Notes under the pieces: generated by a model | Database searches by the model: none | What the model saw: only the letters and a program-made list of their open reading frames with translations | What the model was told of the DNA's origin: nothing | Made by a program: the position numbers and the translations under genes | IMG/VR virus record: IMGVR_UViG_3300031344_000003 | Coordinates: 38,815 to 102,814 of that record | Length of the DNA stretch: 64,000 nucleotides | Direction: 5' to 3' (one strand) | From: a virus | Lineage: Duplodnaviria > Heunggongvirae > Uroviricota > Caudoviricetes | Part shown: one piece after another, positions 2,530 through 45,841 of the stretch | How positions within the stretch are numbered: the first letter of the stretch is position 1 | Layout of the letters: each line of letters opens with the position of its first letter

Positions 2530-3477
2530 ATGTCACTGTGCGGAGGTTGTGGATCTACGTTTGACCCATGGTCATTGAGTGGAAAAGGTAGATTTGTAAG
2601 TCGATGGTGTCGATGTTGTGTTGATGGCACTAAACGTCGTCAAGTGTTTGATTGTTTAGGTTGTCATCAACACATTGATCGTTGGGTTGAAGGTCTTTAT
2701 ACCTCACCAACTTTTTGTAATAAGTCATGTAGAATGAAGTATGAATATGCTAACAATATTAGGCGTAATTTTCTTAATGATAAAACAACGTGGGAATGGT
2801 GGGTCAGTAAATACGGCGAAGAAGAAGCACTTCGTAGAAAAGAGCATCATCGCGACGCAACATCACTAGCTACGTCGGGAGAAAATAATCCGATGTATGG
2901 GCGTCATGATCATGTACACGGTTTGAAACGTTTTGCCAAAGAAAAGACTGGTAAAACACTTGAAGAAGTGCATGGCGTTGATCTAGCAAGGAAAATGCGC
3001 GAGAACAAGTCATTACATGCGCGTGGGTCAAATAATCCTGCGTATGGCAAGGTGTATACGAAAGGTGGAAAGAGCATTAAGGGTTACTACAAAGACAAGT
3101 TTTTTCGTAGTCTACTCGAGTATTCATTCATGAAACATCTTGAGAGTGAGGGGTTATCGCTTAACATTGATGTTGATTATGAGTGCTTCATTGTTCCATA
3201 TGTGTTCAATGGTGCTGATCGGACATATCGCGTTGATTTTTACGTGCCAAGTCGTCATGCAGTGTATGAAGTCAAACCTGCTTATGCTATGAAAGGTGTG
3301 ACGCCCATCAATGAAGCAAAATGGAGTGCAGCACGTGTATACTTCAACCAACGCGGCATACAATTTTATGTAATGTCTGAGTTAGATTTTCCAAAGATCA
3401 TGTTTGATATCGCGAGACAAGACAGCGATGTGACATGGAAAGAAGAGACGTTCAAGTATTTCAAGAGGTCAAAATGA
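2530..3477 (+). CDS. putative homing-endonuclease-like protein: Cys-rich HNH-like N-terminus, NUMOD3-like repeats, C-terminal PD-(D/E)xK-like motif
   Basis: N-terminal CGGCG..CRCC..CLGCHQH..CNKSC. Repeats ENNPMYGRHDHVHG and SNNPAYGKVYTKGG resemble NUMOD3 (N.MYGK.HSEE). C-terminal RVDFYVPSRHAVYEVKP fits D...EVK. Sits in a low-GC island. Confidence 0.45.
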   Translation: MSLCGGCGSTFDPWSLSGKGRFVSRWCRCCVDGTKRRQVFDCLGCHQHIDRWVEGLYTSPTFCNKSCRMKYEYANNIRRNFLNDKTTWEWWVSKYGEEEALRRKEHHRDATSLATSGENNPMYGRHDHVHGLKRFAKEKTGKTLEEVHGVDLARKMRENKSLHARGSNNPAYGKVYTKGGKSIKGYYKDKFFRSLLEYSFMKHLESEGLSLNIDVDYECFIVPYVFNGADRTYRVDFYVPSRHAVYEVKPAYAMKGVTPINEAKWSAARVYFNQRGIQFYVMSELDFPKIMFDIARQDSDVTWKEETFKYFKRSK

Positions 3478-4196
3478 TGCAACGAGTTATCATGTTTGTT
3501 GGGCCAGATCGTTGTGGCAAAACGCAAATTGCTCAAGCTCTTGCAAAAAAGATGGGTGCGATGTACTTCAAAGCATCGTGGGAACATGCCGCATATCAAC
3601 AAAGCATAGGTCTTCGTCAAGGTCGAGATTTAGATCGGGGTGCAGTCGGTGCTAATCTTGATTTAGTGCGCCATCAAGTGCGCGAAATTGCTCGACAAGA
3701 TGATATTGGATTTTGGGTTGCTGAGACAAAAGATAGTGATGGTAAACTCACTCGACAGACTCTTGAACCCAAGGCATTTACGAAAAAAGATCGATTTTTG
3801 AATGAATTACGGTTTGCCGATCCGCGTACATTTGATTTTGTGAAACAATTAGGAGAACAACTTGGAACAAGCGTTGTGTTTGATCGTGCATACCCTTGTG
3901 AAAGTGCGTATTCAACCGTAATGTGCCGTGAAACCGATCAATCAGCGCTTGAACAAATTGATCGTTGGTGGTCATCTCTTAATACTTTGATTATTGTGTG
4001 TCGTCGATCTAACTACAGTGGCATTACAGACGATCTTGATTCTTCAATCAATGGTGACGTACTTCAAAAACTTGATGACGCATACATGGAATTTACCACG
4101 TGGACGCGGTGCTTCTTCAAAGAACTCAACGTCGACGATGAAGACCTCGACCGCGAAGTCAATGAGATCCTGCAGTTCATCGGATGGGAGAAGTGA
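3474..4196 (+). CDS. P-loop nucleoside/nucleotide kinase (possible dNMP kinase)
   Basis: Walker A IMFVGPDRCGKTQIA close to the N-terminus. ATGA overlap with the upstream gene. Also low-GC. Confidence 0.5.
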   Translation: MMQRVIMFVGPDRCGKTQIAQALAKKMGAMYFKASWEHAAYQQSIGLRQGRDLDRGAVGANLDLVRHQVREIARQDDIGFWVAETKDSDGKLTRQTLEPKAFTKKDRFLNELRFADPRTFDFVKQLGEQLGTSVVFDRAYPCESAYSTVMCRETDQSALEQIDRWWSSLNTLIIVCRRSNYSGITDDLDSSINGDVLQKLDDAYMEFTTWTRCFFKELNVDDEDLDREVNEILQFIGWEK

Positions 4197-4204
4197 GGTG
4201 ATCC

Positions 4205-6761: not shown

Positions 6762-6799
6762 CGTAAATAGGGGTGTAGATGGGCGTGTGCGGGAGTAAA

Positions 6800-8122
6800 A
6801 TGAAGAGCATGAAGCGACTACTGGTGACGACGCAGTTGAGCAACTTTGTCGACGGTAAAGCAGATCTCGCTTGCGATAGCGGGTGGCAAATGTGCATCAA
6901 CCGCATCCGCGAGATGCTACGATTGAACCCCAACCTCTACGTCGACATCATGGGACCCAATGAGGATCAGTTGGTGCAGCACCCCGCCGACGTCAATCCT
7001 GATCTGGTTGCGATGTACGGCGAGATCGACGTGCCACGATTGCGGTACATTGAGCACCCAATCGTCACCAGCGCGCTGATCACCCGCTATGACTTCAAGT
7101 GGTCGGAGATCGCCGACTCAATGGGCCTCGAGGAACACAAGGCTGATGTCACCCAGCGCTATGACGCCGTCTATGTGAATGATCCCATGCAGCTCCGCGC
7201 CTTCAAGGCCATGTTCCACGTCGTCGGGGGCTACCAACCCAAGTTCTTCGTGCACTCACACTTCGTCGACGTCCCCGAGGTCCCCAAGTTCCCAGCCGAA
7301 GCGTCGCTGTGGCTGGGCCAGTGCGAGGCCACGCTGAAGGCTGACTACAACTTCTGGCAGTGCGAGTCGGCGATGAACCAGTTCTTCGACAGCATGGGCA
7401 AGTGGTTCGTGCAGGACGTGGTCGACGACGTGCGGGCTAAATCGCAAGCGTCTGATGACGGGTATTCGATTGCGGAGATCACTTCGCCCATATGCCAAGC
7501 TAATCTACGGTTTACGGACGCTGAGTGGCGTGCCAAGACTAATGGTAAGGTGGTACTGTTCTTTCCCAATCGCATTAGCCAGAGTTCAAGTGATTACACG
7601 CGTGGTTGGTGGTTCACACATGAGTTCATGCCCAAACTTCGACAACGTCGCCAAGACTATGTCGTGGTGTGCGGTAATCCTAACATGAAGCTGTCGAATG
7701 ATGAACTCGTTCAATTATGTGGGCCTCATGGTTATGTTAAGCTGCACGATCACACGTTCAATCGTGATGAGTATAAGTACGTTGCGTCACACAGTGACAT
7801 TGTCGTAGCGCTGTATGATGCCAAGAGTGACGCGTACGGTGGGACGGCCTCTCGAGAATGCATTGAATTGGGGTGTGTACCATGCTGGCCTTCTTGCAAT
7901 GAATATTTGAGCCTTGCTCGAGAAGCAAGAGTTGAACACCTATTGGCCAAGTCTGACTTGTCTGATTTAGTAGACGTCGCAGACAATCTCATTGGTCTTG
8001 CGGGTTCATCATCTTTGCCATTGAAACAGTACAATGAACGATTGCGTGAAGTTGTACGTAGGCGCTGTTCGTTTGAACAGACTGTTCCCACAATGATGAA
8101 AAAGATGGGTCTACTATGCTAA
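6800..8122 (+). CDS. putative glycosyltransferase (GT-B-like; weak similarity to the T4 beta-glucosyltransferase UDP-binding motif)
   Basis: C-terminal YDAKSDAYGGTASRECIELGCVPCWP resembles GT-B E..G..EA..G.P and T4 BGT IYGGSFRSGQRE. Start set at MKSMKRLL after a GGGAG RBS. GC drops sharply after about 7440, so the gene looks chimeric. Confidence 0.35.
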   Translation: MKSMKRLLVTTQLSNFVDGKADLACDSGWQMCINRIREMLRLNPNLYVDIMGPNEDQLVQHPADVNPDLVAMYGEIDVPRLRYIEHPIVTSALITRYDFKWSEIADSMGLEEHKADVTQRYDAVYVNDPMQLRAFKAMFHVVGGYQPKFFVHSHFVDVPEVPKFPAEASLWLGQCEATLKADYNFWQCESAMNQFFDSMGKWFVQDVVDDVRAKSQASDDGYSIAEITSPICQANLRFTDAEWRAKTNGKVVLFFPNRISQSSSDYTRGWWFTHEFMPKLRQRRQDYVVVCGNPNMKLSNDELVQLCGPHGYVKLHDHTFNRDEYKYVASHSDIVVALYDAKSDAYGGTASRECIELGCVPCWPSCNEYLSLAREARVEHLLAKSDLSDLVDVADNLIGLAGSSSLPLKQYNERLREVVRRRCSFEQTVPTMMKKMGLLC

Positions 8123-9141
8123 TTGAAGTTCTCGAAACATGGATCAAGACGCCTCGATACAAGAATCGTGGTAAACGACGATTGTTAGCGATTGTTGCGT
8201 GTGATGCGTGCGGCAAACGTGAACAGCTACCATACATCAACGGAATGTGGGAGACTCGAAAACGCGTCTGTTCACCTGAGTGTGATACAAAACTACGATC
8301 TCGTGGTGGTGCGCTTTATGCAAGTATCACGGCGACGAACGTAGAGCGATATGGCGCAAAGTACGCATCAGCGACTGATTTAGGAAAGCACAAACAGGAA
8401 GAGACAAATCTTAGAAAGTATGGATATAAGGCATCCTCACAATCACCTGAAGTTGAAGCTAAACGACTTAACACGTGTCTTTCTATGTATGGCGGACCTG
8501 CAGCAACAAGTGACGCGAACGTCAGAGCGAAAGTCAAGTTGACGTGTGATACCAAGTTTGGTGGTGGTGTGTTGCTCGATGATGATATTCGAGAGCAATT
8601 CAACGCAACTATGGTAGAACGACATGGTGCACCGTGGGCAGCACAATCAGCAATCATTCTCGCTAAACAACATCAGACCAACATTGAACGTTATGGAGTT
8701 GCGTTTCCATTCCACACAGATGAAGCGAAGTCAAGAGCACACTCACCCCAAGCGCTACTCAAACGCCATGAGACCATGAAGCGTAATGGCACATACAGGA
8801 CTTCAAAGCCTGAAGACCGTCTCTATCAAGTTCTGTGTGAGATGTTTGATATAGACGACGTCGACCGCCAGACGCTCGTATACAAGTGGCCAATTGACTT
8901 CTACGCCAAGAGCATTGACACCTACGTACAGTACGACAGTTATTGGCATGGCGTCGGACGCGCAATCATTGAGGTCGCTGAACACAAGGTGCCTCGAGAC
9001 GTCTCGATTCACAAGAAGATGCTGACTGACATCGCTCAGGATGCGTACTTCGCCGAACGTGGCATGCGGCTCATTCGTGTGCAGAGCCTGACGCCTGAAC
9101 AGATTACCCCCGCGGCCATGCGTCGCATGGGCCTGCTGTGA
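8116..9141 (+). CDS. putative homing-endonuclease-like protein: Cys4 zinc ribbon, tandem ERYG repeats, C-terminal DUF559/Vsr-like motif
   Basis: CDACGKR...CSPEC. Repeats NVERYGAKYAS / LRKYGYKAS / MVERHGAPWA / NIERYGVAF. C-terminal PIDFYAKSIDTYVQYDSYWHG is like the DUF559 .DF...IE.DG..WH. In a low-GC segment. Confidence 0.4.
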   Translation: MLIEVLETWIKTPRYKNRGKRRLLAIVACDACGKREQLPYINGMWETRKRVCSPECDTKLRSRGGALYASITATNVERYGAKYASATDLGKHKQEETNLRKYGYKASSQSPEVEAKRLNTCLSMYGGPAATSDANVRAKVKLTCDTKFGGGVLLDDDIREQFNATMVERHGAPWAAQSAIILAKQHQTNIERYGVAFPFHTDEAKSRAHSPQALLKRHETMKRNGTYRTSKPEDRLYQVLCEMFDIDDVDRQTLVYKWPIDFYAKSIDTYVQYDSYWHGVGRAIIEVAEHKVPRDVSIHKKMLTDIAQDAYFAERGMRLIRVQSLTPEQITPAAMRRMGLL

Positions 9142-9142
9142 C

Positions 9143-9469
9143 ATGAAACCCGGTGACCTCATCGAGTGGGCGTACAAGTCGGACGGCAAAGTCGTTCACC
9201 CCCATGAAGAATTGTGGTCATCGATCGAGAAACGCTACGTGCCCATCGGCGGCCTACACCTGTTCGTCAGCAATGTTGACGGCACCCTGACATGGCTGCC
9301 TCTGGGTGAGAATTGTAAGGGGTTGCTCCACGCGCGCGAGGCTGATACGATGGCCAGGTCGGGCCGGTCGTTCGCGACGAGCGGTTGCTCCACGCGCGCG
9401 AGGCTGATACCGACCTGTACGGCGAGTGGTGCGACGACGAAGTCGGTTGCTCCACGCGCGCGAGGCTGA
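9143..9469 (+). CDS. small MKPGDLIEW-family protein, paralog 1; 3' end runs into the repeat array
   Basis: The first 70 aa are conserved with 14071 and 14328 (VPIGG(I/L)HL, DG.LTWL, KGLLhAaEaD). ATG 1 nt after the upstream stop. The tail after GLLHAREAD is translated repeat/spacer sequence. Confidence 0.5.
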   Translation: MKPGDLIEWAYKSDGKVVHPHEELWSSIEKRYVPIGGLHLFVSNVDGTLTWLPLGENCKGLLHAREADTMARSGRSFATSGCSTRARLIPTCTASGATTKSVAPRARG

Positions 9470-9472
9470 TAC
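9321..9472 (+). CRISPR. CRISPR-like mini-array: 3 identical 28-bp direct repeats (GGTTGCTCCACGCGCGCGAGGCTGATAC) at 9321-9348, 9383-9410, 9445-9472 with two unique 34-bp spacers
   Basis: Read directly from the sequence. Period 62 bp, repeats identical, spacers of equal length and unrelated. No cas genes in the window. Repeat 1 also encodes the conserved C-terminus of the 9143 ORF. Confidence 0.35.
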
Positions 9473-9510
9473 GGTAGGCGTGCCGAGACGTCGCCGATTG
9501 TACCCACGCC

Positions 9511-9547
9511 TGTACCACACCTGAACACTGATCTCTCATGTGGTACA
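9511..9547 (+). other. stem-loop (9-bp stem TGTACCACA/TGTGGTACA, 19-nt loop) between the array and the next gene
   Basis: Perfect inverted repeat seen directly in the sequence. No T-tract follows, so a terminator is uncertain. Confidence 0.3.
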
Positions 9548-9556
9548 GTCTAACCC

Positions 9557-10513
9557 ATGACCGAACGGGTATTGATCACGGGCGCGGCGGGTTTCATCGG
9601 CTCAAACCTGGTCACCCGGTGCCTGGCCGAAGGGTGGGTCGTCCGCGGCGTCGACGACATGAGCAGTGGCCACCGAGAACTGCTGCACCCCGCCTTTAAT
9701 ACTGGTAGCCTGTTGATCGGCGACTTTGCCGCTGATTTCGTCCTCAACTCGATCAGGGCACAGGCCTTCGACGTCGTCATTCACCTGGCGGCGACGCCCC
9801 GCGTCAGCTATTCCGTCGAACACCCGCTGGAAACGCACGACAACAACGTCACCAAGACGCTGAAGTTGCTCGACGCCTGCACGGGCAACGTCAAACGCTT
9901 CGTCTTCGCCAGCTCCAGTGCCGTCTATGGTGGCGCGCTGGAGCTGCCCACTCCCGAGACGGCACCCAAGGAACCCAAGTCGCCCTATGCACTCCAGAAG
10001 TCGATCATTGAGGACTACCTGAAGTTGTACAGCAACCTCTACGGCCTCGACAGCGCTTGCCTGCGGTTCTTCAACGTCTTCGGCCCGGGCCAGTTGGGTA
10101 GCAATCCCTATGCGACGGCGATCGCGGCGTGGCTGACAGCGATCAAGCGCGGCGAGCCCATGCGCAGCGACGGTGACGGCTTTCAAAGCCGCGACATGTG
10201 CTACGTCGACAACGTCACTGATGCCTGTGCCAAGGCGGTGCAGAGCAAGGTACCCCTGATGGGAGCGTGTTACAACGTGGCCTGCGGCGACAATGTCTCC
10301 AACAACGACATCTTGGCGGTGTTGCGGGCCCATTACCCAGAGGCGACCGTCGTCAATGCGCCGGCTCGACGGGGCGACGTGATGCACACCATGGCCGACG
10401 TGTCGAAGGCCCAGCAACAGTTGGGCTACGTGCCGCTGGTCAAGTTCTGGCCGGGCCTCATCAAGACGATGATGTGGTACGAGCGTGAGTGGGAACAGAT
10501 CAGGAGCCTGTGA
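9557..10513 (+). CDS. NAD-dependent sugar epimerase/dehydratase (extended SDR)
   Basis: LITGAAGFIGSNL Rossmann motif, SSSAVYG, YALQK (YxxxK). Confidence 0.85.
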   Translation: MTERVLITGAAGFIGSNLVTRCLAEGWVVRGVDDMSSGHRELLHPAFNTGSLLIGDFAADFVLNSIRAQAFDVVIHLAATPRVSYSVEHPLETHDNNVTKTLKLLDACTGNVKRFVFASSSAVYGGALELPTPETAPKEPKSPYALQKSIIEDYLKLYSNLYGLDSACLRFFNVFGPGQLGSNPYATAIAAWLTAIKRGEPMRSDGDGFQSRDMCYVDNVTDACAKAVQSKVPLMGACYNVACGDNVSNNDILAVLRAHYPEATVVNAPARRGDVMHTMADVSKAQQQLGYVPLVKFWPGLIKTMMWYEREWEQIRSL

Positions 10514-10710
10514 TGAAGATCACCTTGACGGCCGATGAAGTGCGCGAGGCCTGCGCGATGTACGTCCGCAGCAAGTACGAAAATTTGCGGGGTGCAACTC
10601 TGGCGGTGCAACTGCACCGTCGTCAACTGACGCCGCAGGAGGAATTCGACGCCTCGCACGGCTACGTCAACGACATGACGGACCGCGTTGAAGCCGTGGT
10701 GGACGCATGA
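10513..10710 (+). CDS. hypothetical small protein
   Basis: tgATG overlap with the upstream stop. Begins MKITLTADEVREA. Confidence 0.35.
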   Translation: MKITLTADEVREACAMYVRSKYENLRGATLAVQLHRRQLTPQEEFDASHGYVNDMTDRVEAVVDA

Positions 10711-10940
10711 GCAATGTCAGGTCAGTCGCAGATTACCATGCAAATCACGCAATTGAAGCACTCAAAGTGCTCATTGAGTCAACGCCTGAAGGCGAGTTCG
10801 TAGATATCCCACAAACACGTCAACAGCTCGAACAGATGCGTCAAAAATTGATCGGCATCGAACACATGAAGGATAGCGTCGCATACATCGATTATCAACT
10901 TGAACAGGGTGATTTGGGAAGGGTACGATTCGCAACATGA
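10707..10940 (+). CDS. hypothetical small protein (low-GC segment)
   Basis: ATGA coupling on both sides. Confidence 0.4.
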   Translation: MSNVRSVADYHANHAIEALKVLIESTPEGEFVDIPQTRQQLEQMRQKLIGIEHMKDSVAYIDYQLEQGDLGRVRFAT

Positions 10941-11692
10941 TTACTAACACCGTCTCTGACATGCGACTGGAGCTGGCACGTCACCTCGCTGACCAGCGCT
11001 TCACCAGCGTCAACCGTGAGGCGTCAATGACGTCGCTGGTCGGCGCCAAGACGATCGAACTGTGTGGTGTCAACTTCATCGCCGACCAAGAAGTGCTGTT
11101 CGGCAAGCTGAACCACGATTACCTCAAGCGTGAGGAACAGTGGTACCAGTCAATGTCGTGCAGCGTTGATGACTTTCCGGGTGGCGCCCCCGCGGTGTGG
11201 GAGGCAATCGCCTCGAGGGATGGACTGGTCAACTCAAACTACGGCTACCTCATCCGTCACTCCGACAATGGTTATCAGTTCGACCACGTCGTTAACGAGT
11301 TACGAAGGAACCCGGAGTCCCGCCGAGCGGTGATGATCTACACCCGGCCGTCGATGTGGGTCGACTACAATAAGGGTGGGCGCTCTGACTTCGTCTGCAC
11401 CAACACGGTGCAGTACCTGATCCGCGACGGTTCGGTGAGTGCTGTGGTGAATATGCGCTCACAAGATTCACACATCGGATATAAGAACGATCGCGAATGG
11501 CAGCGATTGACGCTCAACGCCGTCGCTGATGCGGTGGGAGTACCAGCGGGCGTGCTGATGTGGCAGGTGGGGTCGCTCCATGTCTACCAACGTGACTTCT
11601 ACCTCGTCGATCACTTCATCAAGACGCGTGAAGTCAACATCACCAAGGCGCAGTACCGTGAACTGTATCCCACGTCGCCGTATAATGAGTGA
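10937..11692 (+). CDS. T4 gp42-type deoxynucleotide (dCMP/dUMP) hydroxymethylase, ThyA superfamily
   Basis: RRAVMIYTRPSMWVDYNKGGRSDFVCTNTVQYLIRDG...VVNMRSQDS...VGSLHVYQRDFYLVDHF is near-identical in motif order to T4 gp42 (RRGIMIYTRPSMQFDYNKDGMSDFMCTNTVQYLIRD...VVNMRSND...VGSLHVYSRHFYLVDHW). Confidence 0.8.
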   Translation: MITNTVSDMRLELARHLADQRFTSVNREASMTSLVGAKTIELCGVNFIADQEVLFGKLNHDYLKREEQWYQSMSCSVDDFPGGAPAVWEAIASRDGLVNSNYGYLIRHSDNGYQFDHVVNELRRNPESRRAVMIYTRPSMWVDYNKGGRSDFVCTNTVQYLIRDGSVSAVVNMRSQDSHIGYKNDREWQRLTLNAVADAVGVPAGVLMWQVGSLHVYQRDFYLVDHFIKTREVNITKAQYRELYPTSPYNE

Positions 11693-11708
11693 AGGAGCAA
11701 CACCGAAA

Positions 11709-12275
11709 ATGACATGCATCGTTGGCGTCGCGAAGGGCAACACGGTCTGGTTGGGCGGCGATAGTGCCGCGACGGGCGGGAACATGAATCGCACCATCAT
11801 CAAGGATCCCAAGGTCTTCGTCCGCGGCGAGCTAGCCTTCGGCGTCTGCGGCCTACCTAAGGTGATGGACGCCGTGGCCCATGGCATCGAAATGCCCCAG
11901 CAACAAGGTGATACAAGCGATCGGACCTTTCTGGTCAATGAGCTGGTGCCGGCCCTCCGCGCGGGGCTCAAGCGCCTTGATTGTACCGCCAAAGACCCGC
12001 AATTCGGCACCGTCTTCATGGGAGGCATGTTGATCGGCTACCGAGGTGTCATCTATGAGTTGCAGGGCAATTTTCAACTGTGTACCTGCGCTGAAGGCTT
12101 TGCCTCGGTCGGCTCGGGCTCGCCCTTCGCCAAGGGCGCCCTCCATGCGTCGAATGGCAAGGGCAGTCCCCGCAAGCGGATCCTCAACGCCCTCGAGTGC
12201 GCGACAAAGGGCAATGCGGGCGTCGCCCCACCCTTTGTCATCGTCAGTGTCAAGCAGAAAAGGAAGTGGCTGTAA
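11709..12275 (+). CDS. HslV-like / proteasome beta-type Ntn hydrolase (paralog 1)
   Basis: Begins MTCIVGVAKGNTVWLGGDSAATGGN (Thr1 after Met removal). FGVCG and GSGSPFAKGAL resemble HslV GFAGG and GSGGPYA. AGGAG RBS. Confidence 0.7.
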   Translation: MTCIVGVAKGNTVWLGGDSAATGGNMNRTIIKDPKVFVRGELAFGVCGLPKVMDAVAHGIEMPQQQGDTSDRTFLVNELVPALRAGLKRLDCTAKDPQFGTVFMGGMLIGYRGVIYELQGNFQLCTCAEGFASVGSGSPFAKGALHASNGKGSPRKRILNALECATKGNAGVAPPFVIVSVKQKRKWL

Positions 12276-12277
12276 GC

Positions 12278-12859
12278 ATGACCTGCGTCGTTGGGTTGGA
12301 AGATCACGGCATCATCTACGTCGGTGCGGACAGTGCGGGCATCGACTCTCACTCGTTGAGCATCGTCGGCCGCGCCGACGAGAAGGTCTTCGTCACCGAT
12401 GACGGCGACTTCATCATGGGCTTTGCGGGCTCTTTCCGCATCGGTCAGCTGCTGCGCTATGCCCTCGTCACCCCTGATCAACCGGGCCGCATGGATGACA
12501 TGGCCTACATGGTCACCGACTTCATCGACGCCGTGCGCGCAATGCAGCACGACAAAGGCGCGCGAGAGAAGAAGGACGAACTTGAACAGCACGAGGCCTC
12601 GTTCATCGTCGGGTATCGAGGTCACCTCTATGTCATCGAGAGCGACTACCAGGTGGGTCGACCCATCGACAACTATGCCGCGATCGGTTGTGGAGCTGAC
12701 ATGGCCTTGGGTGCCATGTACGCGACCAAGAAGCTGAAGATGAAGCCTGAAGAGCGATTGATGTTGGCGCTGCAGGCGGCCGCAGAGTTTAGCGCCGGCG
12801 TCAGGCCACCCTTTCACATCCTGAAGCTCGAACCTCCTGTTGTTGACGAGGCAAAGTAG
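12278..12859 (+). CDS. HslV-like / proteasome beta-type Ntn hydrolase (paralog 2)
   Basis: MTCVVGLEDHGIIYVGADSAG...FIMGFAGS...AIGCGADMALGAMYA. Sits 3 nt after paralog 1. Confidence 0.7.
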   Translation: MTCVVGLEDHGIIYVGADSAGIDSHSLSIVGRADEKVFVTDDGDFIMGFAGSFRIGQLLRYALVTPDQPGRMDDMAYMVTDFIDAVRAMQHDKGAREKKDELEQHEASFIVGYRGHLYVIESDYQVGRPIDNYAAIGCGADMALGAMYATKKLKMKPEERLMLALQAAAEFSAGVRPPFHILKLEPPVVDEAK

Positions 12860-12868
12860 GAGAACACC

Positions 12869-13183
12869 ATGGGCGCACACCTGATCAATGGTGAGTTTCA
12901 AAGCGACAAATATCCGACGTGTCCCCGGGGAAAGGTGCCATTGAGCGTCAAGGATCCGACGGCACAAGACCTGCTGTGGGAGTACGCGCAGCGTCGCCGC
13001 GCAGTTGATGCCGAGTTTGCTGACGATCTGGAGACGGCGCTGCGCGCGTGTGGTTATGAGCCCAGGGGCATCACTAGGATTTCAAAGTCCGATGCCGAAT
13101 ACTTGCGAGGCGAGCCTTCACCACTGAAAATTCTGATCCCAAATTCTATTGAAGAAGACGACCCGCCTGAAAGTGAGGAGTGA
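12869..13183 (+). CDS. hypothetical protein
   Basis: AGGAG RBS. Acidic C-terminus. Confidence 0.4.
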   Translation: MGAHLINGEFQSDKYPTCPRGKVPLSVKDPTAQDLLWEYAQRRRAVDAEFADDLETALRACGYEPRGITRISKSDAEYLRGEPSPLKILIPNSIEEDDPPESEE

Positions 13184-13185
13184 AC

Positions 13186-13488
13186 ATGACATCGAGAGAC
13201 TTCTGCTACTGGCTCCAGGGCTTCTTGGAGCTCCGCGATGCAGGTTACTCGGGTACGAACATCTCGCTGACCCACGAACAGCTCGACTGCATCAAGCGTC
13301 ACCTGGCGATGGTGTTCAAGCACGAGATTGACCCGAGCATGGGTGATGAGGCTCACCGTGACGAGCTGCAGGACATCCACGACGACGATGCGACTGCCAA
13401 GCAACCCATTAGACCCAAACGCGTGAACGTCTCCGTCCTCGACCAGCGCGGTCCCACGTTCGATCCCAACGTCAGGTTGATGTGCTGA
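13186..13488 (+). CDS. hypothetical protein
   Basis: GGAG RBS 5 nt before ATG 13186. Confidence 0.4.
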   Translation: MTSRDFCYWLQGFLELRDAGYSGTNISLTHEQLDCIKRHLAMVFKHEIDPSMGDEAHRDELQDIHDDDATAKQPIRPKRVNVSVLDQRGPTFDPNVRLMC

Positions 13489-13489
13489 G

Positions 13490-14074
13490 ATGGCCGACAC
13501 CAACGCCTCTCTGATCGTCTTCTGTGGGCCCATGATGTCGGGCAAGACGTCGAAGCTGTTGATGGCCCTCGAGCGCCTCAAGTACCAGCACAAGCGCGTT
13601 GCCGTCTTCAAGCCCTCGCTCGACGTCAGGTACAGCGCCAGCGAAATCGTCAGCCACTTGGGTTGGCGGCACCCGGCGACGACGGTGCAAGGCGGCGCCG
13701 ACATCCTCGAGGCACTGGCTGAGGCCGACGTGGCACCTGATGCGATTGCCGTCGACGAGGCCTTCATGATCCCGGGTGTCGCAGGGGTGTTGACGTGGTT
13801 GTACCGCACCGGCGTCGACGTCGTCGTCTCCACGCTCGACATTTCGGCGACGGGCAAGCCCTTTCCCGAGGTCGAGAAGTTGTTGCCGTGGGCCACGCAC
13901 ATCGAGAAGTGCTCGGCCGTCTGCACCCAGTGTGGCCGTGACGCCTTCTACACCCACAAGAAGCAGGTGTCGACCGACGATGAGATTGAAGTCGGTGGTG
14001 CCGAGATGTACGAGCCGCGTTGTAGCCGCCATCACGTCGCGATCGATCTGCGGCCCAAGCTCAATGAGCCATGA
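13490..14074 (+). CDS. tdk: thymidine kinase (TK1 family)
   Basis: LIVFCGPMMSGKTSKLL, VAVFKPSLDVRY, C-terminal zinc motif CTQCG...EPRCSRHH. Confidence 0.85.
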   Translation: MADTNASLIVFCGPMMSGKTSKLLMALERLKYQHKRVAVFKPSLDVRYSASEIVSHLGWRHPATTVQGGADILEALAEADVAPDAIAVDEAFMIPGVAGVLTWLYRTGVDVVVSTLDISATGKPFPEVEKLLPWATHIEKCSAVCTQCGRDAFYTHKKQVSTDDEIEVGGAEMYEPRCSRHHVAIDLRPKLNEP

Positions 14075-14331
14075 AACCCGGCGATCTCATCGCGCGGGTG
14101 TACGAATCTGACGGCGTTACAGCACTTCGTAGAGAAGAATTGTTATCATCGGTGACGGGCGATTACGTGCCCATTGGGGGCATTCACCTGTTGATCAGCT
14201 ATGTCGATGGAATATTGACATGGTTGCCTTTGGGTGCAAACTGCAACGAGTTGTTTAGTGCGGACGAGAACGACACCGAAGCCGGCATTGCAGGCGACGA
14301 CGTCATCTACGTACACGTGAGCCTGACATGA
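14071..14331 (+). CDS. small MKPGDLI-family protein, paralog 2
   Basis: ATGA overlap with tdk. Protein conserved with 9143 and 14328. Confidence 0.5.
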   Translation: MKPGDLIARVYESDGVTALRREELLSSVTGDYVPIGGIHLLISYVDGILTWLPLGANCNELFSADENDTEAGIAGDDVIYVHVSLT

Positions 14332-14618
14332 AGCCAGGCGACCTCATCGAGTGGGCGTATAGGGTTGATAATTGTGTCGTTGTTCACAGTGAATATTTGT
14401 GGTCATCGGTGTTCAATCGTTTTGTGCCCATTGGGGGCATCCACCTGCTGATCGGACGCGCCGATGGGATATTGACGTGGCTGTCTCTACGTGCAGCTCA
14501 CAAGGGCTTGTTGCGAGCCGCCGAGCGCGATGTGCTGTGCCTAAGGGCGGAACGTCCTGCCGGCAAGGGTTGTTACGCACGTGTCTTCGGGCGCGGTGCG
14601 GTGAGGCCGACGGTGTAA
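14328..14618 (+). CDS. small MKPGDLIEW-family protein, paralog 3
   Basis: ATGA overlap. Conserved at protein level with synonymous DNA divergence from paralog 1. A degenerate copy of its 3' segment recurs about 64 bp downstream (14501 vs 14565). Confidence 0.5.
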   Translation: MKPGDLIEWAYRVDNCVVVHSEYLWSSVFNRFVPIGGIHLLIGRADGILTWLSLRAAHKGLLRAAERDVLCLRAERPAGKGCYARVFGRGAVRPTV

Positions 14619-14647
14619 TCGATGATCCACCGTGGTATGATCAGTAG

Positions 14648-15787
14648 GTGATACCCATTCGCCGCCCATTCACAATGAAACTGCCCGCTGAAGTGTTGAC
14701 CCTATCGAGCCTCTTCAATCAGGTGGGTCATGAGCTCTACGTGGTCGGCGGTGCCGTTCGCGATGCGGTGTTGGGGCAATCACCCAAGGACTTTGACGTG
14801 GCGACGGGGGCGACACCAGACCAAGTGGTGAAGCTGCTGAAGACACTGCCTGGCGGGTGCAAGATCAATGCCGTCGGCAAGTCATTCGGCGTCGTCAAGG
14901 TGCAGTTCTACGCCGCGCGCAATGAACTCGAGATCGCCACGTTCCGCCAGGACGTGGGTGCAGGGCGAAGGCCTGAAAGCGTCGTCTTTACCACGATCGA
15001 CGAGGACGTCAAGCGCCGTGATTTAACGATCAACGCGCTGTTCTTCGACATCGAACGCAGCGAACTCGTCGATCTGGTGGGCGGGTTGGCTGACCTCGAC
15101 GCCAAGCTCGTCAGGACGGTGGGCGACCCATTCGCACGCTTTGCCGAAGATCGCCTCCGCATCCTGCGCGCCGTCAGGTTCGCCTGCAAGTTGGGCTTTG
15201 ACATCGAAGGGATGACTGCGCAGGCGATCAAGCACGACCCCAACCTTCACGGCGTGTCGCCTGAGCGCATTCACGACGAGTTCACTCGTGCCGTGGCGAC
15301 GGCGAAACACGTGCCGGCACTGATGCAGCACCTGAACTACTTTGACCTGTGGCCTCACGTGCTGCCGGGCCTCAACGTGTCGTACCAGTTGGCCGAAGGC
15401 ATCACCTCACGCGTGCCTGAGGTCGCACTAGCAGTGCTGCTCGATCACCAGCGACCGTGTGGCATCGACGAGCGTTTGGCCGCGCTGAAGTACAGCGCTC
15501 ACGAGATCTCGCGGACGACGTTCCTGTTGAGGTACCGCGACCTCGAGGTGTCGAGTGCCTTCAAGCTGCGCAAGGCCTTCTTGGCGTGCTCGATGAGCGC
15601 TGAGGTGCTGCAGGACTACTATCGCCTGCGGGGCCTGCCCGTCACTGCGTTGGTCAGGGCCTTCAACGACTACCTGCGCGCGGCGCCCGTCAAGGGCGGC
15701 GACGTGATGAAGGATGGTTTTGCTAAGCAGGCGCTTGGCGCTGAGATTGAACGACGTGAGACCGAGATTTTCAAGGGGTTGCTATGA
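14648..15787 (+). CDS. cca: tRNA nucleotidyltransferase (CCA-adding enzyme) / poly(A) polymerase family
   Basis: LYVVGGAVRD..LG, DFDV and RRDLTINALF are head-domain motifs of the class II CCA-adding family. Confidence 0.8.
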   Translation: MIPIRRPFTMKLPAEVLTLSSLFNQVGHELYVVGGAVRDAVLGQSPKDFDVATGATPDQVVKLLKTLPGGCKINAVGKSFGVVKVQFYAARNELEIATFRQDVGAGRRPESVVFTTIDEDVKRRDLTINALFFDIERSELVDLVGGLADLDAKLVRTVGDPFARFAEDRLRILRAVRFACKLGFDIEGMTAQAIKHDPNLHGVSPERIHDEFTRAVATAKHVPALMQHLNYFDLWPHVLPGLNVSYQLAEGITSRVPEVALAVLLDHQRPCGIDERLAALKYSAHEISRTTFLLRYRDLEVSSAFKLRKAFLACSMSAEVLQDYYRLRGLPVTALVRAFNDYLRAAPVKGGDVMKDGFAKQALGAEIERRETEIFKGLL

Positions 15788-16344
15788 AGAAGACATTCGA
15801 GGAAGCATGGGCCGAGAAGGAGAAACAGGGCTACCAGTACGGCGCCGACGCCCTGGAGCAGGTTCGCATGGGATGGGAGCTGCACGAAGGTGCTGATGAG
15901 CCCAAGGTCGGTCGATCACCTTGGCCTACGCGGTGGATGAATGTCGCTCGCTTGCTAGCCAGTGAGTGTTCTTATGACCCAAGACTGAAGGTCTGTGCAA
16001 TCATGGTGCCCGAGGACAATACGGGAATCATGGCTTTTGGGTACAATGGGAATGCGAAGGGCATGCCCAATGAAGTCGAGTCACTTGTTCCCGGCCAATC
16101 AGGTGCGATTCACGCTGAACAAAATTGCCTCATTAAGGCACCATTCCACTTTCCACTCAAGAAACACATGTACATCACCCACAGTTCATGCAGGGCCTGT
16201 GCCAAGCTCCTGATCAACGCCAACGTGTCGCGCGTGGTCTATGGAGAGCTGTACCGCGACGCGTCGGGCCTCGACCTGCTGCGAGCAGCGGGAATAGAGG
16301 TTTACTCCGAGGCAGAAGCCGTGGCCCTTACGGCACGGGCGTGA
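15784..16344 (+). CDS. dCMP deaminase (zinc-dependent cytidine/deoxycytidylate deaminase)
   Basis: HAEQNCL (HAE) and SSCRACAKLL (PC..C). Confidence 0.85.
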   Translation: MKKTFEEAWAEKEKQGYQYGADALEQVRMGWELHEGADEPKVGRSPWPTRWMNVARLLASECSYDPRLKVCAIMVPEDNTGIMAFGYNGNAKGMPNEVESLVPGQSGAIHAEQNCLIKAPFHFPLKKHMYITHSSCRACAKLLINANVSRVVYGELYRDASGLDLLRAAGIEVYSEAEAVALTARA

Positions 16345-16357
16345 TACTTATGCCAAA

Positions 16358-45662: not shown

Positions 45663-45841
45663 AAAATACGGGCTTCTTTCTCCGCTTTCTTCGTGGGTTC
45701 ACGTGCAAACACGAGTGGGGCAACGTCGTCGAAATCGTTCACGACGAAGGTGACCTCATTCGCGACTGGCTCGGTTCGAGCTACACCAGACACACGTACA
45801 TCTGCAATCAGTGTGGCAAGGAAAAGACATGGACACGTTGA
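45659..45841 (+). CDS. small zinc-finger protein (GTG start)
   Basis: CKHEWG...CNQCGKE. Confidence 0.3.
   Translation: MKNTGFFLRFLRGFTCKHEWGNVVEIVHDEGDLIRDWLGSSYTRHTYICNQCGKEKTWTR

What the first reader, a model, noticed from the sequence alone, without database searches (positions are those of the whole stretch)
6800..16344. T4-like hydroxymethyl-pyrimidine DNA modification module with added sugar-nucleotide enzymes
ORF 10937 is an unmistakable T4 gp42-type dNMP hydroxymethylase. It is flanked in the wider neighbourhood by dCMP deaminase (15784), thymidine kinase (13490) and a P-loop nucleotide kinase (3474). There is also a putative GT-B glycosyltransferase with a T4 beta-gt-like YGG..RE motif (6800). 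The phage additionally encodes its own UDP-sugar pyrophosphorylase (45829) and an NAD-dependent sugar epimerase/dehydratase (9557). Together these suggest glycosylated hm-pyrimidine DNA whose sugar may be supplied, and possibly altered, by phage enzymes.
Basis: partly seen in the sequence, partly recalled or inferred. Interest (0 to 1): 0.65.

Follow-up and report, generated by a model that had tools for sequence, protein, structure and literature searches.

The report
Jumbo-phage hydroxymethylcytosine glycosylation gene cluster
An uncultured 360-kb phage carries a T4-type enzyme that makes hydroxymethyl-cytosine nucleotides, next to a previously unnamed sugar-transferase, a nucleotide kinase and a sugar epimerase, so it most likely coats its DNA cytosines with a sugar to escape host nucleases; this is a known strategy carried out here with new parts.

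Summary
ORF 10937-11692 is a T4 gp42-type dCMP hydroxymethylase: about 50% identical to T4-like gp42, E=2e-71 to PDB 1B5E. It has the catalytic Cys, Asp at E. coli ThyA 177 and 143, and keeps Asp169, so it lacks the RB69 5-hydroxy-dCMP synthase signature.

This GT family is small (151 clusters). In 30 viral loci and four further contexts on other phage backbones it lies beside a dCMP-type TS homolog, a dNK/Tmk-like kinase (the 3435-4196 family) and usually an SDR. RB69, DLP3 and RL38J1 have the same kinase-GT-TS trio.

The SDR (9557-10513) is a PelX/WbgU-like UDP-sugar 4-epimerase. The UDPGP homolog (45811-46893) has lost its nucleotide-binding loop here and is probably inactive. No dCTPase lies in the window.

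Verdict: probable glycosylated 5hmC DNA; a new member of a known kind. Nothing is shown biochemically.

The parts
3435..4196 (+). dNK/Tmk-like P-loop nucleotide kinase; the likely start is Met14 at 3474. Its proposed role, inferred only, is as a 5hm-dCMP kinase or another nucleotide kinase partner of the GT.
   Evidence: The Walker A motif is GPDRCGKT and there is a DR..E motif. A family profile (A2) hits the PDB deoxynucleoside kinase 2JAQ at E=1e-5 and SPbeta YorR 3KB2. It also hits RB69 gp45, the 'thymidylate kinase' of the arabinosyl-5hoC cluster, at 27.6 bits. Pfam dNK matches 7 of 17 members and Thymidylate_kin 2 of 17. The gene lies upstream of the GT in 27 of 28 loci and directly adjacent to it in L021, L026, L029, L034 and L041. 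The window copy carries a unique insertion of about 56 aa and lies in a 41% GC island.
6779..8122 (+). Sequence-orphan GT-B (GT4-like) glycosyltransferase. It is the proposed DNA 5hmC glycosyltransferase.
8116..9141 (+). DUF7487-type homing-endonuclease gene inserted between the GT and the epimerase. It is a mobile passenger, not part of the pathway.
   Evidence: Pfam DUF7487 E=5.5e-19 and PHROG homing endonuclease E=1.7e-16. GC3 is 0.47 against about 0.75 for its neighbours. Homologs sit at different positions in related loci.
9557..10513 (+). NAD-dependent extended-SDR UDP-sugar 4-epimerase. It is the proposed supplier of the GT's donor sugar, for example UDP-GalNAc or UDP-Gal made from host UDP-GlcNAc or UDP-Glc.
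   Evidence: Pfam Epimerase E=5.6e-50 and PHROG nucleotide-sugar epimerase E=1e-66. The best PDB matches are PelX 6WJB at E=1.5e-56, then WbgU and WbpP. The GAAGFIGS, SSSAVYG and YALQK motifs are present. The gatekeeper in 'GDVMHT' is Thr, aligned with the Ser of PelX and WbgU in 'GD[IV]RHS'. The protein scores below NCBIfam's GalE cut-off, 154 against 262 bits. The gene lies next to the GT in 27 of 30 loci.
10937..11692 (+). T4 gp42-type deoxycytidylate 5-hydroxymethyltransferase (5hm-dCMP synthase).
   Evidence: PDB 1B49/1B5D/1B5E at E=2.3e-71. tblastn gives about 50% identity over 94-96% of the length to gp42 of T4-like phages. The score is 243 bits to T4 gp42 against 41.5 bits to the RB69 gp48 5hodCMP synthase. 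In E. coli ThyA numbering the residues are E58, C146, L143->D, D169 retained and N177->D.
13490..14074 (+). Thymidine kinase. It is part of the nucleotide-metabolism neighbourhood, as in T4.
   Evidence: Pfam TK E=2.3e-35 and NCBIfam thymidine kinase E=3e-44. The gene is syntenic in most related loci.
15784..16344 (+). dCMP deaminase (T4 cd analogue).
   Evidence: Pfam dCMP_cyt_deam_1 E=2.5e-15. The HAE and C..C zinc motifs are visible in the translation. The gene is syntenic in related loci.
45811..46893 (+). UDPGP-family (UDP-sugar pyrophosphorylase) homolog. In this phage it lacks the nucleotide-binding loop and is probably inactive or repurposed.
   Evidence: Pfam UDPGP E=1.2e-9 over profile positions 161-339 only. 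Homologs occur on the same jumbo-phage contigs as the GT. Relatives have LAGG-xGTRxGGPK, whereas the window copy and its 83%-identical relative P0122 have LAGR------APKLL. They also show TS->VA and H->N changes at otherwise conserved positions. The flanking genes encode DNA glycosylases.
29565..30020 (+). NUDIX hydrolase. It is the only nucleotide pyrophosphohydrolase candidate in the window. A role as a dCTP-clearing enzyme is pure speculation.
   Evidence: Pfam NUDIX E=5e-21 and PHROG MutT/NUDIX E=3e-18. No T4 gp56, MazG or dUTPase homolog is present in the window.

Best explanation
The region is the cytosine-hypermodification module of an uncultured jumbo phage of about 360 kb.

1. Step 1 (strongly supported by sequence): the gp42-type enzyme (10937-11692) converts dCMP to 5-hydroxymethyl-dCMP before replication.
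2. Step 2 (inferred): the dNK/Tmk-like kinase (3435-4196), together with host NDP kinase, raises it to the triphosphate. The phage Pol III alpha-type replicase then incorporates it, so the DNA carries 5hmC.
3. Step 3 (inferred from fold and conserved gene neighbourhood): the GT4-like GT-B enzyme (6779-8122) transfers a sugar from a UDP-sugar to the 5-hydroxymethyl group of 5hmC in duplex DNA after replication.
4. Step 4 (inferred): the adjacent PelX/WbgU-like 4-epimerase (9557-10513) makes the donor by epimerising a host UDP-sugar at C4 (UDP-GlcNAc to UDP-GalNAc, or UDP-Glc to UDP-Gal). The sugar is therefore probably not plain glucose.

dCMP deaminase and thymidine kinase balance the pyrimidine pools, as in T4. 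The UDPGP homolog of this phage has lost its NTP-binding loop and probably does not supply UDP-sugar. The expected benefit is resistance to host restriction and other nuclease defences.
For: Hydroxymethylase:
- E=2.3e-71 to the T4 enzyme, with C148, E60 and D179 aligned.
- It shows the published diagnostic pattern N177D + L143D + D169 retained. The RB69 gp48 control shows D169N in the same alignment (criteria from PMC13326640).

GT fold:
- pLDDT 89.
- The BFVD neighbours include GTs of phages with glycosylated DNA: SP-15, S-TIM5 'DNA alpha-GT', RL2RES, KARL-1 and SSE1.

Association:
- In the 26 IMG/VR loci with at least 4 kb downstream of the GT, 26 have a TS homolog within 4.3 kb.
- The kinase is present in 27 of 28 loci and the SDR in 27 of 30.
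- Every TS homolog has Asp at the ThyA 177 and 169 positions.

Independent backbones carrying the same GT family:
- L035 (Pol A phage): TS - kinase ... GT - MazG/PRA-PH.
- L038 (Pol B/DnaB phage): TS - kinase - SDR - UDG - GT - PolB.
- L040: gp56-like dCTPase ... UDP-Glc dehydrogenase - SDR - GT - dCMP deaminase - PolB - TS.
- L037: kinase - GT - ... - RB69 gp50 homolog at E=3e-70.
- L041: the kinase abuts the GT.

Precedents:
- The same kinase-GT-TS trio occurs in the experimentally studied clusters of RB69 (p045-p048), DLP3 and RL38J1.
- The window kinase family is detectably homologous to RB69 gp45.
- GT plus partner-epimerase pairs that put Hex, HexNAc or HexA on 5hmC have been shown experimentally for other phage GTs (bioRxiv 10.1101/2023.12.21.572611).
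- The window shows no palindrome avoidance. This is weak evidence but consistent.
Against: - Nothing here is biochemical. The phage is uncultured and its DNA composition is unknown.
- Most of the synteny evidence comes from one clade, so the loci are not independent observations. The independent contexts number only four or five.
- No dCTPase (gp56, MazG or dUTPase type) was found in the window, so complete replacement of C is unproven. About 295 kb of the genome could not be examined.
- No T4 gp1-type dNMP kinase was found. The role of the Tmk-like kinase is unknown even in RB69, which also has gp1.
- The epimerase scores below NCBIfam's GalE cut-off, and its substrate is not determined.
- Two clade members (L027, L032) keep the GT without the SDR.
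Confidence: 0.65

Rival explanations
1. The phage makes 5hmC DNA (or only a 5hm-dCMP pool), but the GT-B and the epimerase serve something other than DNA. Candidate targets are a virion or host protein, a host envelope glycan or lipid, or a small molecule. On this reading their position next to the hydroxymethylase only reflects a shared early-gene block.
For: The closest structures are small-molecule and lipid GT4 enzymes: BshA, PimA, sucrose-phosphate synthase and PglA. Generic GT4 enzymes of giant viruses also appear among the BFVD matches. The window block also contains unrelated genes: an HslV-like pair, a CCA-adding enzyme and SOD. PelX-type epimerases normally feed exopolysaccharide synthesis.
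Against: The GT family is tiny (151 clusters in 1.84 billion representatives). Wherever enough sequence was recovered it sits beside a dCMP-type TS homolog and a Tmk-like kinase, including on Pol A and Pol B phages that share no backbone with this one. Surface-glycan GTs do not show that pattern. The proven DNA arabinosyltransferases of DLP3 and RB69 give the same kind of BshA and sucrose-phosphate-synthase top hits.
Confidence: 0.17
2. The GT glycosylates a modified base in RNA (for example tRNA) rather than in DNA, by analogy with the GT4-like queuosine mannosyltransferase.
For: Two of 33 distant family members hit Pfam QTMAN_N, the N-terminal domain of tRNA-queuosine alpha-mannosyltransferase, with best E=2.9e-6. 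A CCA-adding enzyme lies 6.5 kb downstream.
Against: There is no tRNA gene in the window. No queuosine-pathway gene was detected in the window. The constant partners are deoxynucleotide enzymes and DNA polymerases. QTMAN_N is simply a GT4-type N-terminal domain.
Confidence: 0.04
3. The TS homolog makes a different C5 product (5-hydroxy-dCMP as in RB69, or 5-methyl-dCMP), and the sugar is attached to that base or is not attached at all.
For: RB69 gp48 was long annotated as a dCMP hydroxymethylase but makes 5hodCMP. This shows that annotation by similarity can mislead within this family.
Against: The window enzyme is about 50% identical to T4 gp42 itself (243 bits) against 41.5 bits to RB69 gp48. 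It keeps Asp at ThyA 169, where all tested 5hodCMP synthases have Asn. It has Asp at ThyA 143, the position linked to hydroxymethyl rather than methyl products.
Confidence: 0.06

Closest known systems
T4 5hmC pathway (gp42 dCMP hydroxymethylase, gp1 kinase, gp56 dCTPase, alpha- and beta-glucosyltransferases, cd, tk)
   Same: - The hydroxymethylase is orthologous: about 50% identity and identical active-site pattern.
- dCMP deaminase and thymidine kinase are present.
- A GT-B enzyme lies close to the hydroxymethylase gene, as b-gt abuts gene 42 in T4.
   Different: - There is no sequence homolog of alpha-GT, beta-GT or gp56 in the window.
- The kinase is dNK/Tmk-like, not gp1-like: 1DEK is absent from the profile hits.
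- A phage 4-epimerase is added, so the sugar is probably not glucose taken directly from host UDP-Glc.
- The replicase is Pol III alpha type in a genome of about 360 kb.
Glycosyl-5-hydroxycytosine clusters of RB69, DLP3 and Rhizobium phage RL38J1 (Lee et al. 2026, PMC13326640)
   Same: - The gene trio is the same: Tmk-like nucleotide kinase, GT-B 'glycosyltransferase 1' and a TS homolog with N177D.
- The kinase families are detectably homologous at 27.6 bits.
- The GTs give the same structural neighbours: BshA, sucrose-phosphate synthase and PimA.
- Phage-encoded sugar-nucleotide enzymes accompany the GT.
   Different: - The TS homolog here keeps Asp169, so the predicted base is 5hmC, not 5hoC.
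- The GT shows no detectable sequence similarity to RB69 gp46:47.
- The sugar enzymes differ: a 4-epimerase here, against an arabinose-5-P isomerase, kinase-uridylyltransferase and phosphatase, or a UDP-Gal mutase, in those phages.
Epimerase-dependent DNA glycosyltransferases of the phage C5-MT/5mYOX (TET) pathways, 'subclass II' (bioRxiv 10.1101/2023.12.21.572611)
   Same: A GT is paired with an adjacent sugar epimerase and acts on 5hmC in DNA. Those pairs were shown to install Hex, HexNAc or HexA, and the activity depends on the epimerase.
   Different: In those pathways 5hmC is made after replication by a methyltransferase plus a TET-like dioxygenase, and the epimerase-paired GTs are not among the enzymes that paper lists as GT-B. 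Here 5hmC is made before replication by a ThyA-type enzyme and the GT is GT-B/GT4-like.
GT4-family retaining glycosyltransferases (BshA, PimA, MshA, sucrose-phosphate synthase)
   Different: The window protein itself hits no GT Pfam model and no PDB sequence. The first Glu of EX7E is not conserved. The genomic context is deoxynucleotide metabolism, not cell-envelope synthesis.

Membership tests
T4 gp42-type dCMP hydroxymethylase (5hm-dCMP synthase, thymidylate-synthase superfamily) | Full-length homology to the solved T4 enzyme | tested here: met
   PDB 1B49/1B5D/1B5E at E=2.3e-71 over residues 31-241. About 50% identity to gp42 of T4-like phages.
T4 gp42-type dCMP hydroxymethylase (5hm-dCMP synthase, thymidylate-synthase superfamily) | Catalytic Cys (T4 C148 / E. 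coli C146) and Glu (T4 E60 / E. coli E58) | tested here: met
   Both residues are aligned and conserved.
T4 gp42-type dCMP hydroxymethylase (5hm-dCMP synthase, thymidylate-synthase superfamily) | Asp at E. coli ThyA N177 (T4 D179), which gives cytosine rather than uracil specificity | tested here: met
   The window has 'YKNDREW', with D aligned to T4 D179. The criterion comes from PMC13326640.
T4 gp42-type dCMP hydroxymethylase (5hm-dCMP synthase, thymidylate-synthase superfamily) | Acidic residue at E. coli ThyA L143, linked to a hydroxymethyl rather than a methyl product | tested here: met
   Asp is present ('RSDFVC'), as in T4 'MSDFMC'.
T4 gp42-type dCMP hydroxymethylase (5hm-dCMP synthase, thymidylate-synthase superfamily) | Enzymatic conversion of dCMP and methylene-THF to 5hm-dCMP | not testable with these tools
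   This needs expression and LC-MS.
5-hydroxy-dCMP synthase (RB69 gp48 / DLP3 gp80 type) | Asn replacing Asp at E. coli ThyA position 169 (D169N) | tested here: not met
   The window has Asp ('MRSQD'). The RB69 gp48 control in the same alignment has Asn ('MRSQN'). The window protein scores only 41.5 bits to RB69 gp48.
T4 beta-glucosyltransferase (CAZy GT63) | Sequence or close structural similarity to T4 BGT | tested here: not met
T4 beta-glucosyltransferase (CAZy GT63) | YGG..RE phosphate-binding motif at the start of the C-terminal domain | tested here: not met
   The string exists in both proteins. In BGT it is at residues 186-196 of 351, at the start of the C-terminal domain according to prior structural knowledge of BGT (not modelled here). 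In the window protein it is at 353-360 of 447, late in the C-terminal domain, between strand 341-343 and helix 356-363.
T4 alpha-glucosyltransferase (CAZy GT72) | GT-B fold similar to AGT | tested here: met
T4 alpha-glucosyltransferase (CAZy GT72) | Sequence homology to AGT | tested here: not met
   phmmer and hmmsearch find no hit, and a profile search of PDB sequences returns nothing.
GT4-like retaining GT-B glycosyltransferases | Two Rossmann-like domains with best structural matches to GT4 enzymes | tested here: met
GT4-like retaining GT-B glycosyltransferases | Match to the Pfam Glycos_transf_1 / Glyco_transf_4 models | tested here: inconclusive
   The window protein has no hit. The distant family member in L035 hits Glyco_trans_1_4 at E=4e-4. 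Of 33 distant members, 2 hit Glycos_transf_1 and 1 hits Glyco_transf_4.
DNA 5hmC glycosyltransferase (functional class) | Transfer of sugar to 5hmC in duplex DNA | not testable with these tools
   Only context supports it: a TS homolog within 4.3 kb in 26 of 26 loci and the same association on four other backbones.
UDP-hexose / UDP-HexNAc 4-epimerase (extended SDR; GalE, WbpP, WbgU, PelX) | GxxGxxG NAD site and the Ser...YxxxK catalytic residues, without the Asp-Glu pair of 4,6-dehydratases | tested here: met
   GAAGFIGS, SSSAVYG and YALQK are aligned with the PelX and WbgU catalytic S, Y and K.
UDP-hexose / UDP-HexNAc 4-epimerase (extended SDR; GalE, WbpP, WbgU, PelX) | Small gatekeeper residue that admits N-acetylated substrates (Ser in WbpP, WbgU and PelX; Tyr in E. 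coli GalE) | tested here: met
   The Thr in 'GDVMHT' aligns with the Ser of 'GDIRHS' (PelX) and 'GDVRHS' (WbgU). The link between this residue and substrate range is from prior knowledge.
UDP-hexose / UDP-HexNAc 4-epimerase (extended SDR; GalE, WbpP, WbgU, PelX) | Score above a curated equivalog cut-off | tested here: not met
   GalE TIGR01179 scores 154 bits against a cut-off of 262. TviC scores 147 against 760. The substrate is therefore unassigned.
UDP-sugar pyrophosphorylase (Pfam UDPGP, PF01704) | Match above the Pfam gathering score | tested here: met
   37.8 bits against a cut-off of 22, but only profile positions 161-339 are matched.
UDP-sugar pyrophosphorylase (Pfam UDPGP, PF01704) | Gly-rich nucleotide-binding loop (L-x-G-G-x-G-T-R-x-G...PK) | tested here: not met
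   The loop is deleted in the window protein and in P0122 ('LAGR------APKLL') and present in most of the other 28 aligned relatives (degenerate in a few, e.g. P0160) ('LAGGAGTRMGGPK').
Deoxynucleoside / thymidylate kinase-like P-loop kinases | Walker A motif plus profile similarity to dNK/Tmk enzymes | tested here: met
   The profile A2 hits 2JAQ deoxyguanosine kinase at E=1.1e-5 and YorR at E=0.013. It hits RB69 gp45 at 27.6 bits. Pfam dNK and Thymidylate_kin hit some members weakly.
T4 gp1-type dNMP kinase | Sequence similarity to T4 gp1 (PDB 1DEK/1DEL) | tested here: not met
   1DEK and 1DEL are not among the 47 PDB sequences matched by profile A2 at E<=10.
T4 gp56-type dCTPase / MazG-like NTP pyrophosphohydrolase | A homolog present in the window | tested here: not met
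   phmmer with T4 gp56 and RB69 gp28 finds nothing, and Pfam over the remaining ORFs finds only a NUDIX. The rest of the genome, about 295 kb, was not examined. Relatives L035 and L040 do carry such genes next to the GT family.

The most novel reading that the evidence does not exclude
The 447-aa protein may represent a previously unnamed, sequence-orphan family of DNA glycosyltransferases. On this reading it travels with a dedicated dNK/Tmk-like kinase as a portable cassette among at least five unrelated phage backbones: a jumbo Pol III alpha clade, one Pol A phage, two Pol B phages and others. Paired with lineage-specific sugar-nucleotide enzymes (a 4-epimerase here; UDP-Glc dehydrogenase plus an SDR in L040), it would decorate pre-replicatively made 5hmC with non-glucose sugars such as GalNAc, Gal or hexuronate. 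Such sugars have not been reported for ThyA-type pathways. A corollary is that a whole clade of 300-370 kb soil and peat phages, spanning 34-62% GC, would have fully hypermodified DNA.
Probability: 0.4. Interest if true: 0.6.

Novelty: new member of a known kind. Interest (0 to 1): 0.45.

Why it matters
Glycosylated 5hmC is the classic phage counter-defence against restriction enzymes and many other nuclease-based systems. Recent work shows that the chemistry is much more varied than the T4 case.

If the inference is right, a large clade of uncultured jumbo phages uses this strategy with a glycosyltransferase family that no current profile database recognises. Such clusters are therefore invisible to annotation pipelines.

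Three practical consequences would follow:
- a search handle (the GT plus Tmk-like kinase pair) for finding further DNA-glycosylation clusters;
- candidate enzymes for installing new sugars, possibly HexNAc, on 5hmC for biotechnology;
- a warning that the DNA of these phages may be under-represented or mis-sequenced in metagenomes.

It would not change the conceptual picture of phage DNA hypermodification.

Tried and rejected
- Megablast of 6700-16400 against 50,697 phage records found no match. tblastn of the GT found no match either. The best Pol III alpha hits are only 25-34% identical, so no cultured relative is available.
- Sequence searches for the GT returned nothing: Pfam, PHROGs, NCBIfam, and PDB by single sequence and by profile.
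- phmmer with T4 gp56, alpha-GT and beta-GT, and with the RB69 cluster proteins, against all six-frame ORFs of the window found only the gp42 homolog.
- I considered that the divergent TS homologs in about half of the related loci might be plain ThyA, which would have uncoupled the GT from cytosine modification. I rejected this because all of them carry Asp at ThyA 177 and 143.
- I considered the RB69-type 5-hydroxycytosine chemistry and rejected it because Asp169 is retained.
- The search for related loci with alignments of distant GT members failed because no stretch was conserved enough. A single distant protein gave no confirmed locus. I used the look-up of encoding contigs instead.
- The palindrome-avoidance test gave O/E of about 1.0. 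This is consistent with modified DNA but has too little power to count as evidence.
- The tRNA scan found none.
- PADLOC was not searched.

Full report
**What the window is.** The 64-kb window is about 58% G+C and almost all of its genes are on the + strand. The exact 447-aa product of ORF 6779-8122 is recorded on metagenome contigs of up to 361 kb. One ENA contig of 359,321 bp carries the same gene order as the window. Megablast of the region and tblastn of the 447-aa protein find nothing in 50,697 phage records. The Pol III alpha fragment at the window start has at best 25-34% identity to any cultured phage. The source is therefore an uncultured jumbo phage of about 360 kb.

**Checking the observation.**
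- 10937-11692 matches Pfam Thymidylat_synt only weakly (E=1.6e-14). It matches the solved T4 deoxycytidylate hydroxymethylase at E=2.3e-71 and is about 50% identical to gp42 of many T4-like phages.
- 9557-10513 is an NAD-dependent epimerase/dehydratase (E=5.6e-50), and 13490-14074 is a thymidine kinase.
- 15784-16344 is a dCMP deaminase, and 45811-46893 passes the Pfam UDPGP threshold.
- 3435-4196 is a P-loop protein.
- The string YGGTASRE is really there, at residues 353-360 of the 447-aa protein. T4 beta-glucosyltransferase really contains YGGSFRSGQRE.

**The hydroxymethylase.** A 2026 paper (PMC13326640) shows that RB69's 'dCMP hydroxymethylase' actually makes 5-hydroxy-dCMP, so similarity alone is not a safe guide in this family. 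The paper gives three diagnostic positions in E. coli ThyA numbering:
- N177D confers dCMP specificity.
- An acidic residue at L143 goes with a hydroxymethyl rather than a methyl product.
- D169N marks 5-hydroxy-dCMP synthases.

I aligned the window protein with E. coli ThyA, T4 gp42 and RB69 gp48. The window protein has D177, D143 and D169, exactly the T4 pattern. The RB69 control shows D169N, as published. The window protein scores 243 bits to T4 gp42 and 41.5 bits to RB69 gp48. The prediction of a 5hm-dCMP synthase is as firm as sequence can make it.

**The glycosyltransferase.** The 447-aa protein hits nothing in Pfam, PHROGs, NCBIfam or PDB sequences, even as a 33-sequence profile. Its AlphaFold2 model is confident (pLDDT 89, pTM 0.88) and is a two-Rossmann GT-B fold.
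- Foldseek puts GlgM, glycogen synthase, BshA and OtsA on top.
- T4 beta-glucosyltransferase is in neither top list, and a profile search against it is negative.

The YGG..RE string lies at residues 186-196 of 351 in beta-GT. From prior structural knowledge (not modelled here) that is the start of its C-terminal domain. In the window protein the string is at 353-360 of 447, late in the C-terminal domain, where GT4 enzymes carry their EX7E motif. The proven DNA arabinosyltransferases of DLP3 and RB69 give the same kind of structural neighbours. A GT4-like profile is thus compatible with a DNA acceptor but does not demonstrate one. Among predicted viral structures the neighbours include GTs of Arthrobacter phages, SP-15, cyanophage S-TIM5 ('DNA alpha-GT'), Rhizobium phage RL2RES, KARL-1 and SSE1, alongside generic giant-virus GT4 enzymes.

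**Comparative genomics (the main new evidence).** The GT family is small: 151 clusters at 50% identity among 1.84 billion representatives. Thirty IMG/VR loci carry a relative. Twenty-nine of them belong to one clade of large phages (contigs up to 369 kb, G+C 34-62%). Their gene order is conserved: Pol III alpha ... P-loop kinase - GT - SDR - TS homolog - two HslV-like genes - TK - CCA enzyme - dCMP deaminase - SOD.
- A TS homolog lies within 4.3 kb downstream of the GT in 26 of the 26 loci that have enough sequence.
- The kinase is present in 27 of 28 loci and the SDR in 27 of 30.
- The TS homologs fall into two very different sequence types, but all have Asp at ThyA 177, 143 and 169.

These loci share ancestry, so they are not independent observations. 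I therefore looked at distant family members on other backbones.
- L035 (a 22-kb Pol A phage): TS homolog - Tmk-like kinase, then GT - MazG/PRA-PH pyrophosphohydrolase.
- L038 (a Pol B/DnaB phage): FEN - TS - kinase - SDR - UDG - GT - Pol B.
- L040 (another Pol B phage): a gp56-like dCTPase, then UDP-glucose dehydrogenase - SDR - GT - dCMP deaminase - Pol B - TS.
- L037: kinase - GT - a Nuc_deoxyrib_tr protein - a close homolog of RB69 gp50 (E=3e-70) - dCMP deaminase.
- L041: the kinase abuts the GT.

The same trio of Tmk-like kinase, GT-B 'glycosyltransferase 1' and N177D TS homolog is found in the experimentally studied clusters of RB69 (p045-p048), DLP3 and RL38J1. This repeated association across backbones is why I rate the DNA-glycosylation reading as the most likely one.

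**The kinase.** A profile of the 3435-4196 family hits PDB deoxynucleoside kinases (2JAQ, E=1.1e-5) and the SPbeta protein YorR. YorR is the top Foldseek hit reported for DLP3 gp78. The profile also hits RB69 gp45 at 27.6 bits. It does not hit T4 gp1 (1DEK). The protein is therefore a dNK/Tmk-like nucleotide kinase. Its role as the 5hm-dCMP kinase is an inference, and even in RB69 the role of this kinase is undefined.

**The sugar enzymes.** The SDR is closest to PelX (E=1.5e-56), WbgU and WbpP, all UDP-HexNAc 4-epimerases. It has the GxxGxxG site, the catalytic Ser and YxxxK, and no dehydratase Asp-Glu pair. It has Thr where PelX and WbgU have the small gatekeeper Ser. It falls below NCBIfam's GalE and TviC cut-offs, so the substrate is open: Glc/Gal, GlcNAc/GalNAc or a uronate. 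GT plus epimerase pairs that install Hex, HexNAc or HexA on 5hmC, with GT activity dependent on the epimerase, have been shown for other phage GTs (bioRxiv 10.1101/2023.12.21.572611).

The UDPGP homolog is conserved on the same jumbo contigs. In this phage and in its 83%-identical relative, however, the Gly-rich nucleotide-binding loop is deleted: 'LAGR------APKLL' against 'LAGGAGTRMGGPK' in most of the other 28 aligned sequences (the loop is also degenerate in a few, e.g. P0160). Two further conserved positions are also changed. The gene sits between genes for a pyrimidine-dimer glycosylase, an HhH-GPD glycosylase and an Fpg/Nei glycosylase. I conclude that it is probably not an active pyrophosphorylase here, so 'the phage supplies its own UDP-sugar' is not supported for this genome.

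**What is missing.** No gp56, MazG or dUTPase-type dCTPase was found in the window. The only candidate is a NUDIX hydrolase at 29565-30020. Whether C is completely replaced is therefore unknown. Palindromes are not avoided (O/E about 1.0), which fits protected DNA but is weak evidence.

**Rivals.**
- The GT and epimerase could serve a non-DNA acceptor. The best structural matches are small-molecule and lipid GT4 enzymes. The cross-backbone linkage to deoxynucleotide enzymes argues against this (confidence about 0.17).
- A tRNA-base acceptor is suggested only by two weak QTMAN_N hits among distant members. There is no tRNA or queuosine gene here (about 0.04).
- A different C5 product is made unlikely by the diagnostic residues (about 0.06).

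**Novelty and verdict.** The logic is that of T4 and, more closely, of the RB69, DLP3 and RL38J1 clusters and the epimerase-dependent GTs of TET-type pathways. A TS homolog makes a C5-oxygenated dCMP, a kinase activates it, and a GT-B with phage sugar-nucleotide enzymes decorates it.

New here are:
- a glycosyltransferase family that no profile library recognises;
- its pairing with a 4-epimerase in a ThyA-type 5hmC pathway;
- its presence across a clade of uncultured jumbo phages.

I class it as a new member of a known kind, with interest 0.45. Confidence in the overall mechanism is 0.65. By step, this is about 0.9 for 5hm-dCMP synthesis, about 0.65-0.7 for DNA glycosylation by the GT, about 0.55 for the epimerase as donor supplier, and about 0.2 for any role of the UDPGP homolog in this phage.

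Noticed in passing
window 32120-35152: Adjacent full-length malate synthase (Pfam E=1e-102) and isocitrate lyase (E=1e-101) genes. This is a complete glyoxylate-shunt pair encoded by a phage.
   Followed up: no
window 2500-4200: An island of about 1.7 kb at about 41% G+C in a roughly 60% G+C genome. It holds a TnsA/endonuclease I-NUMOD3 homing-endonuclease-like gene (2530-3477) and the Tmk-like kinase gene, both with GC3 of 0.34. The kinase also has a unique insertion of about 56 aa that is absent from the 24 full-length relatives aligned. It looks like an allele imported from a low-GC relative together with a homing endonuclease.
   Followed up: partly
window 11580-12275 and 12197-12859: Two paralogous HslV/proteasome-beta-like genes (PHROG 1040, E about 1e-22) lie directly downstream of the hydroxymethylase. 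They are conserved at that position in most related jumbo-phage loci. An AAA ATPase lies at 54943-56310.
   Followed up: no
window 8116-9141; L006, L008, L011, L024, L027, L032, L033: A DUF7487-type homing-endonuclease gene sits between the GT and the epimerase in this phage and in L024. Its homologs sit at other positions in relatives, so it is mobile within the clade.
   Followed up: partly
window 9143-9469, 14071-14331, 14328-14618: Three small paralogous ORFs (86-108 aa; mutual E of 1e-16 to 1e-25) with no family match are scattered through the nucleotide-metabolism block. Relatives carry up to four copies, for example L006.
   Followed up: no
window 45192-49514: A cluster of base-excision repair genes surrounds the degenerate UDPGP homolog. 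It comprises a T4 endoV-like pyrimidine-dimer glycosylase (45192-45662), an HhH-GPD glycosylase (47243-47662) and an Fpg/Nei glycosylase (48660-49514).
   Followed up: no
L006-L034 (syntenic TS position): At one syntenic position the clade carries two very different TS-homolog types. One is T4 gp42-like (E of 1e-70 to 1e-110 to the window protein). The other is a longer form of about 330 aa (E of 1e-9 to 1e-19). Both have Asp at ThyA 143, 169 and 177, which implies gene replacement with function retained.
   Followed up: partly
L040 5856-9323; L037 3735-5896: Other phages pair the same GT family with different sugar or base enzymes. L040 has UDP-glucose dehydrogenase plus an SDR, which suggests a uronic acid or pentose donor, and a gp56-like dCTPase. 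L037 has a Nuc_deoxyrib_tr protein and a close homolog (E=3e-70) of RB69 gp50, the U32-peptidase-like protein of the arabinosyl-5hoC cluster.
   Followed up: partly
window 56988-58649, 5670-6761(-), 16662-17417, 62593-62898, 53330-54094, 21408-23244: An unusual set of host-like genes: GroEL (about 45% identical to bacterial GroL), a DnaJ-WGR fusion, Fe/Mn superoxide dismutase, an IF-1 homolog, a TANGO2-family protein, a carbon-nitrogen hydrolase and a pterin-4a-carbinolamine dehydratase.
   Followed up: no
window, whole: There is no avoidance of 4- or 6-bp palindromes (mean O/E of 1.02 and 0.99). Only CTAG is depleted (0.49). No tRNA genes are present in these 64 kb, although a CCA-adding enzyme gene lies at 14648-15787.
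   Followed up: yes
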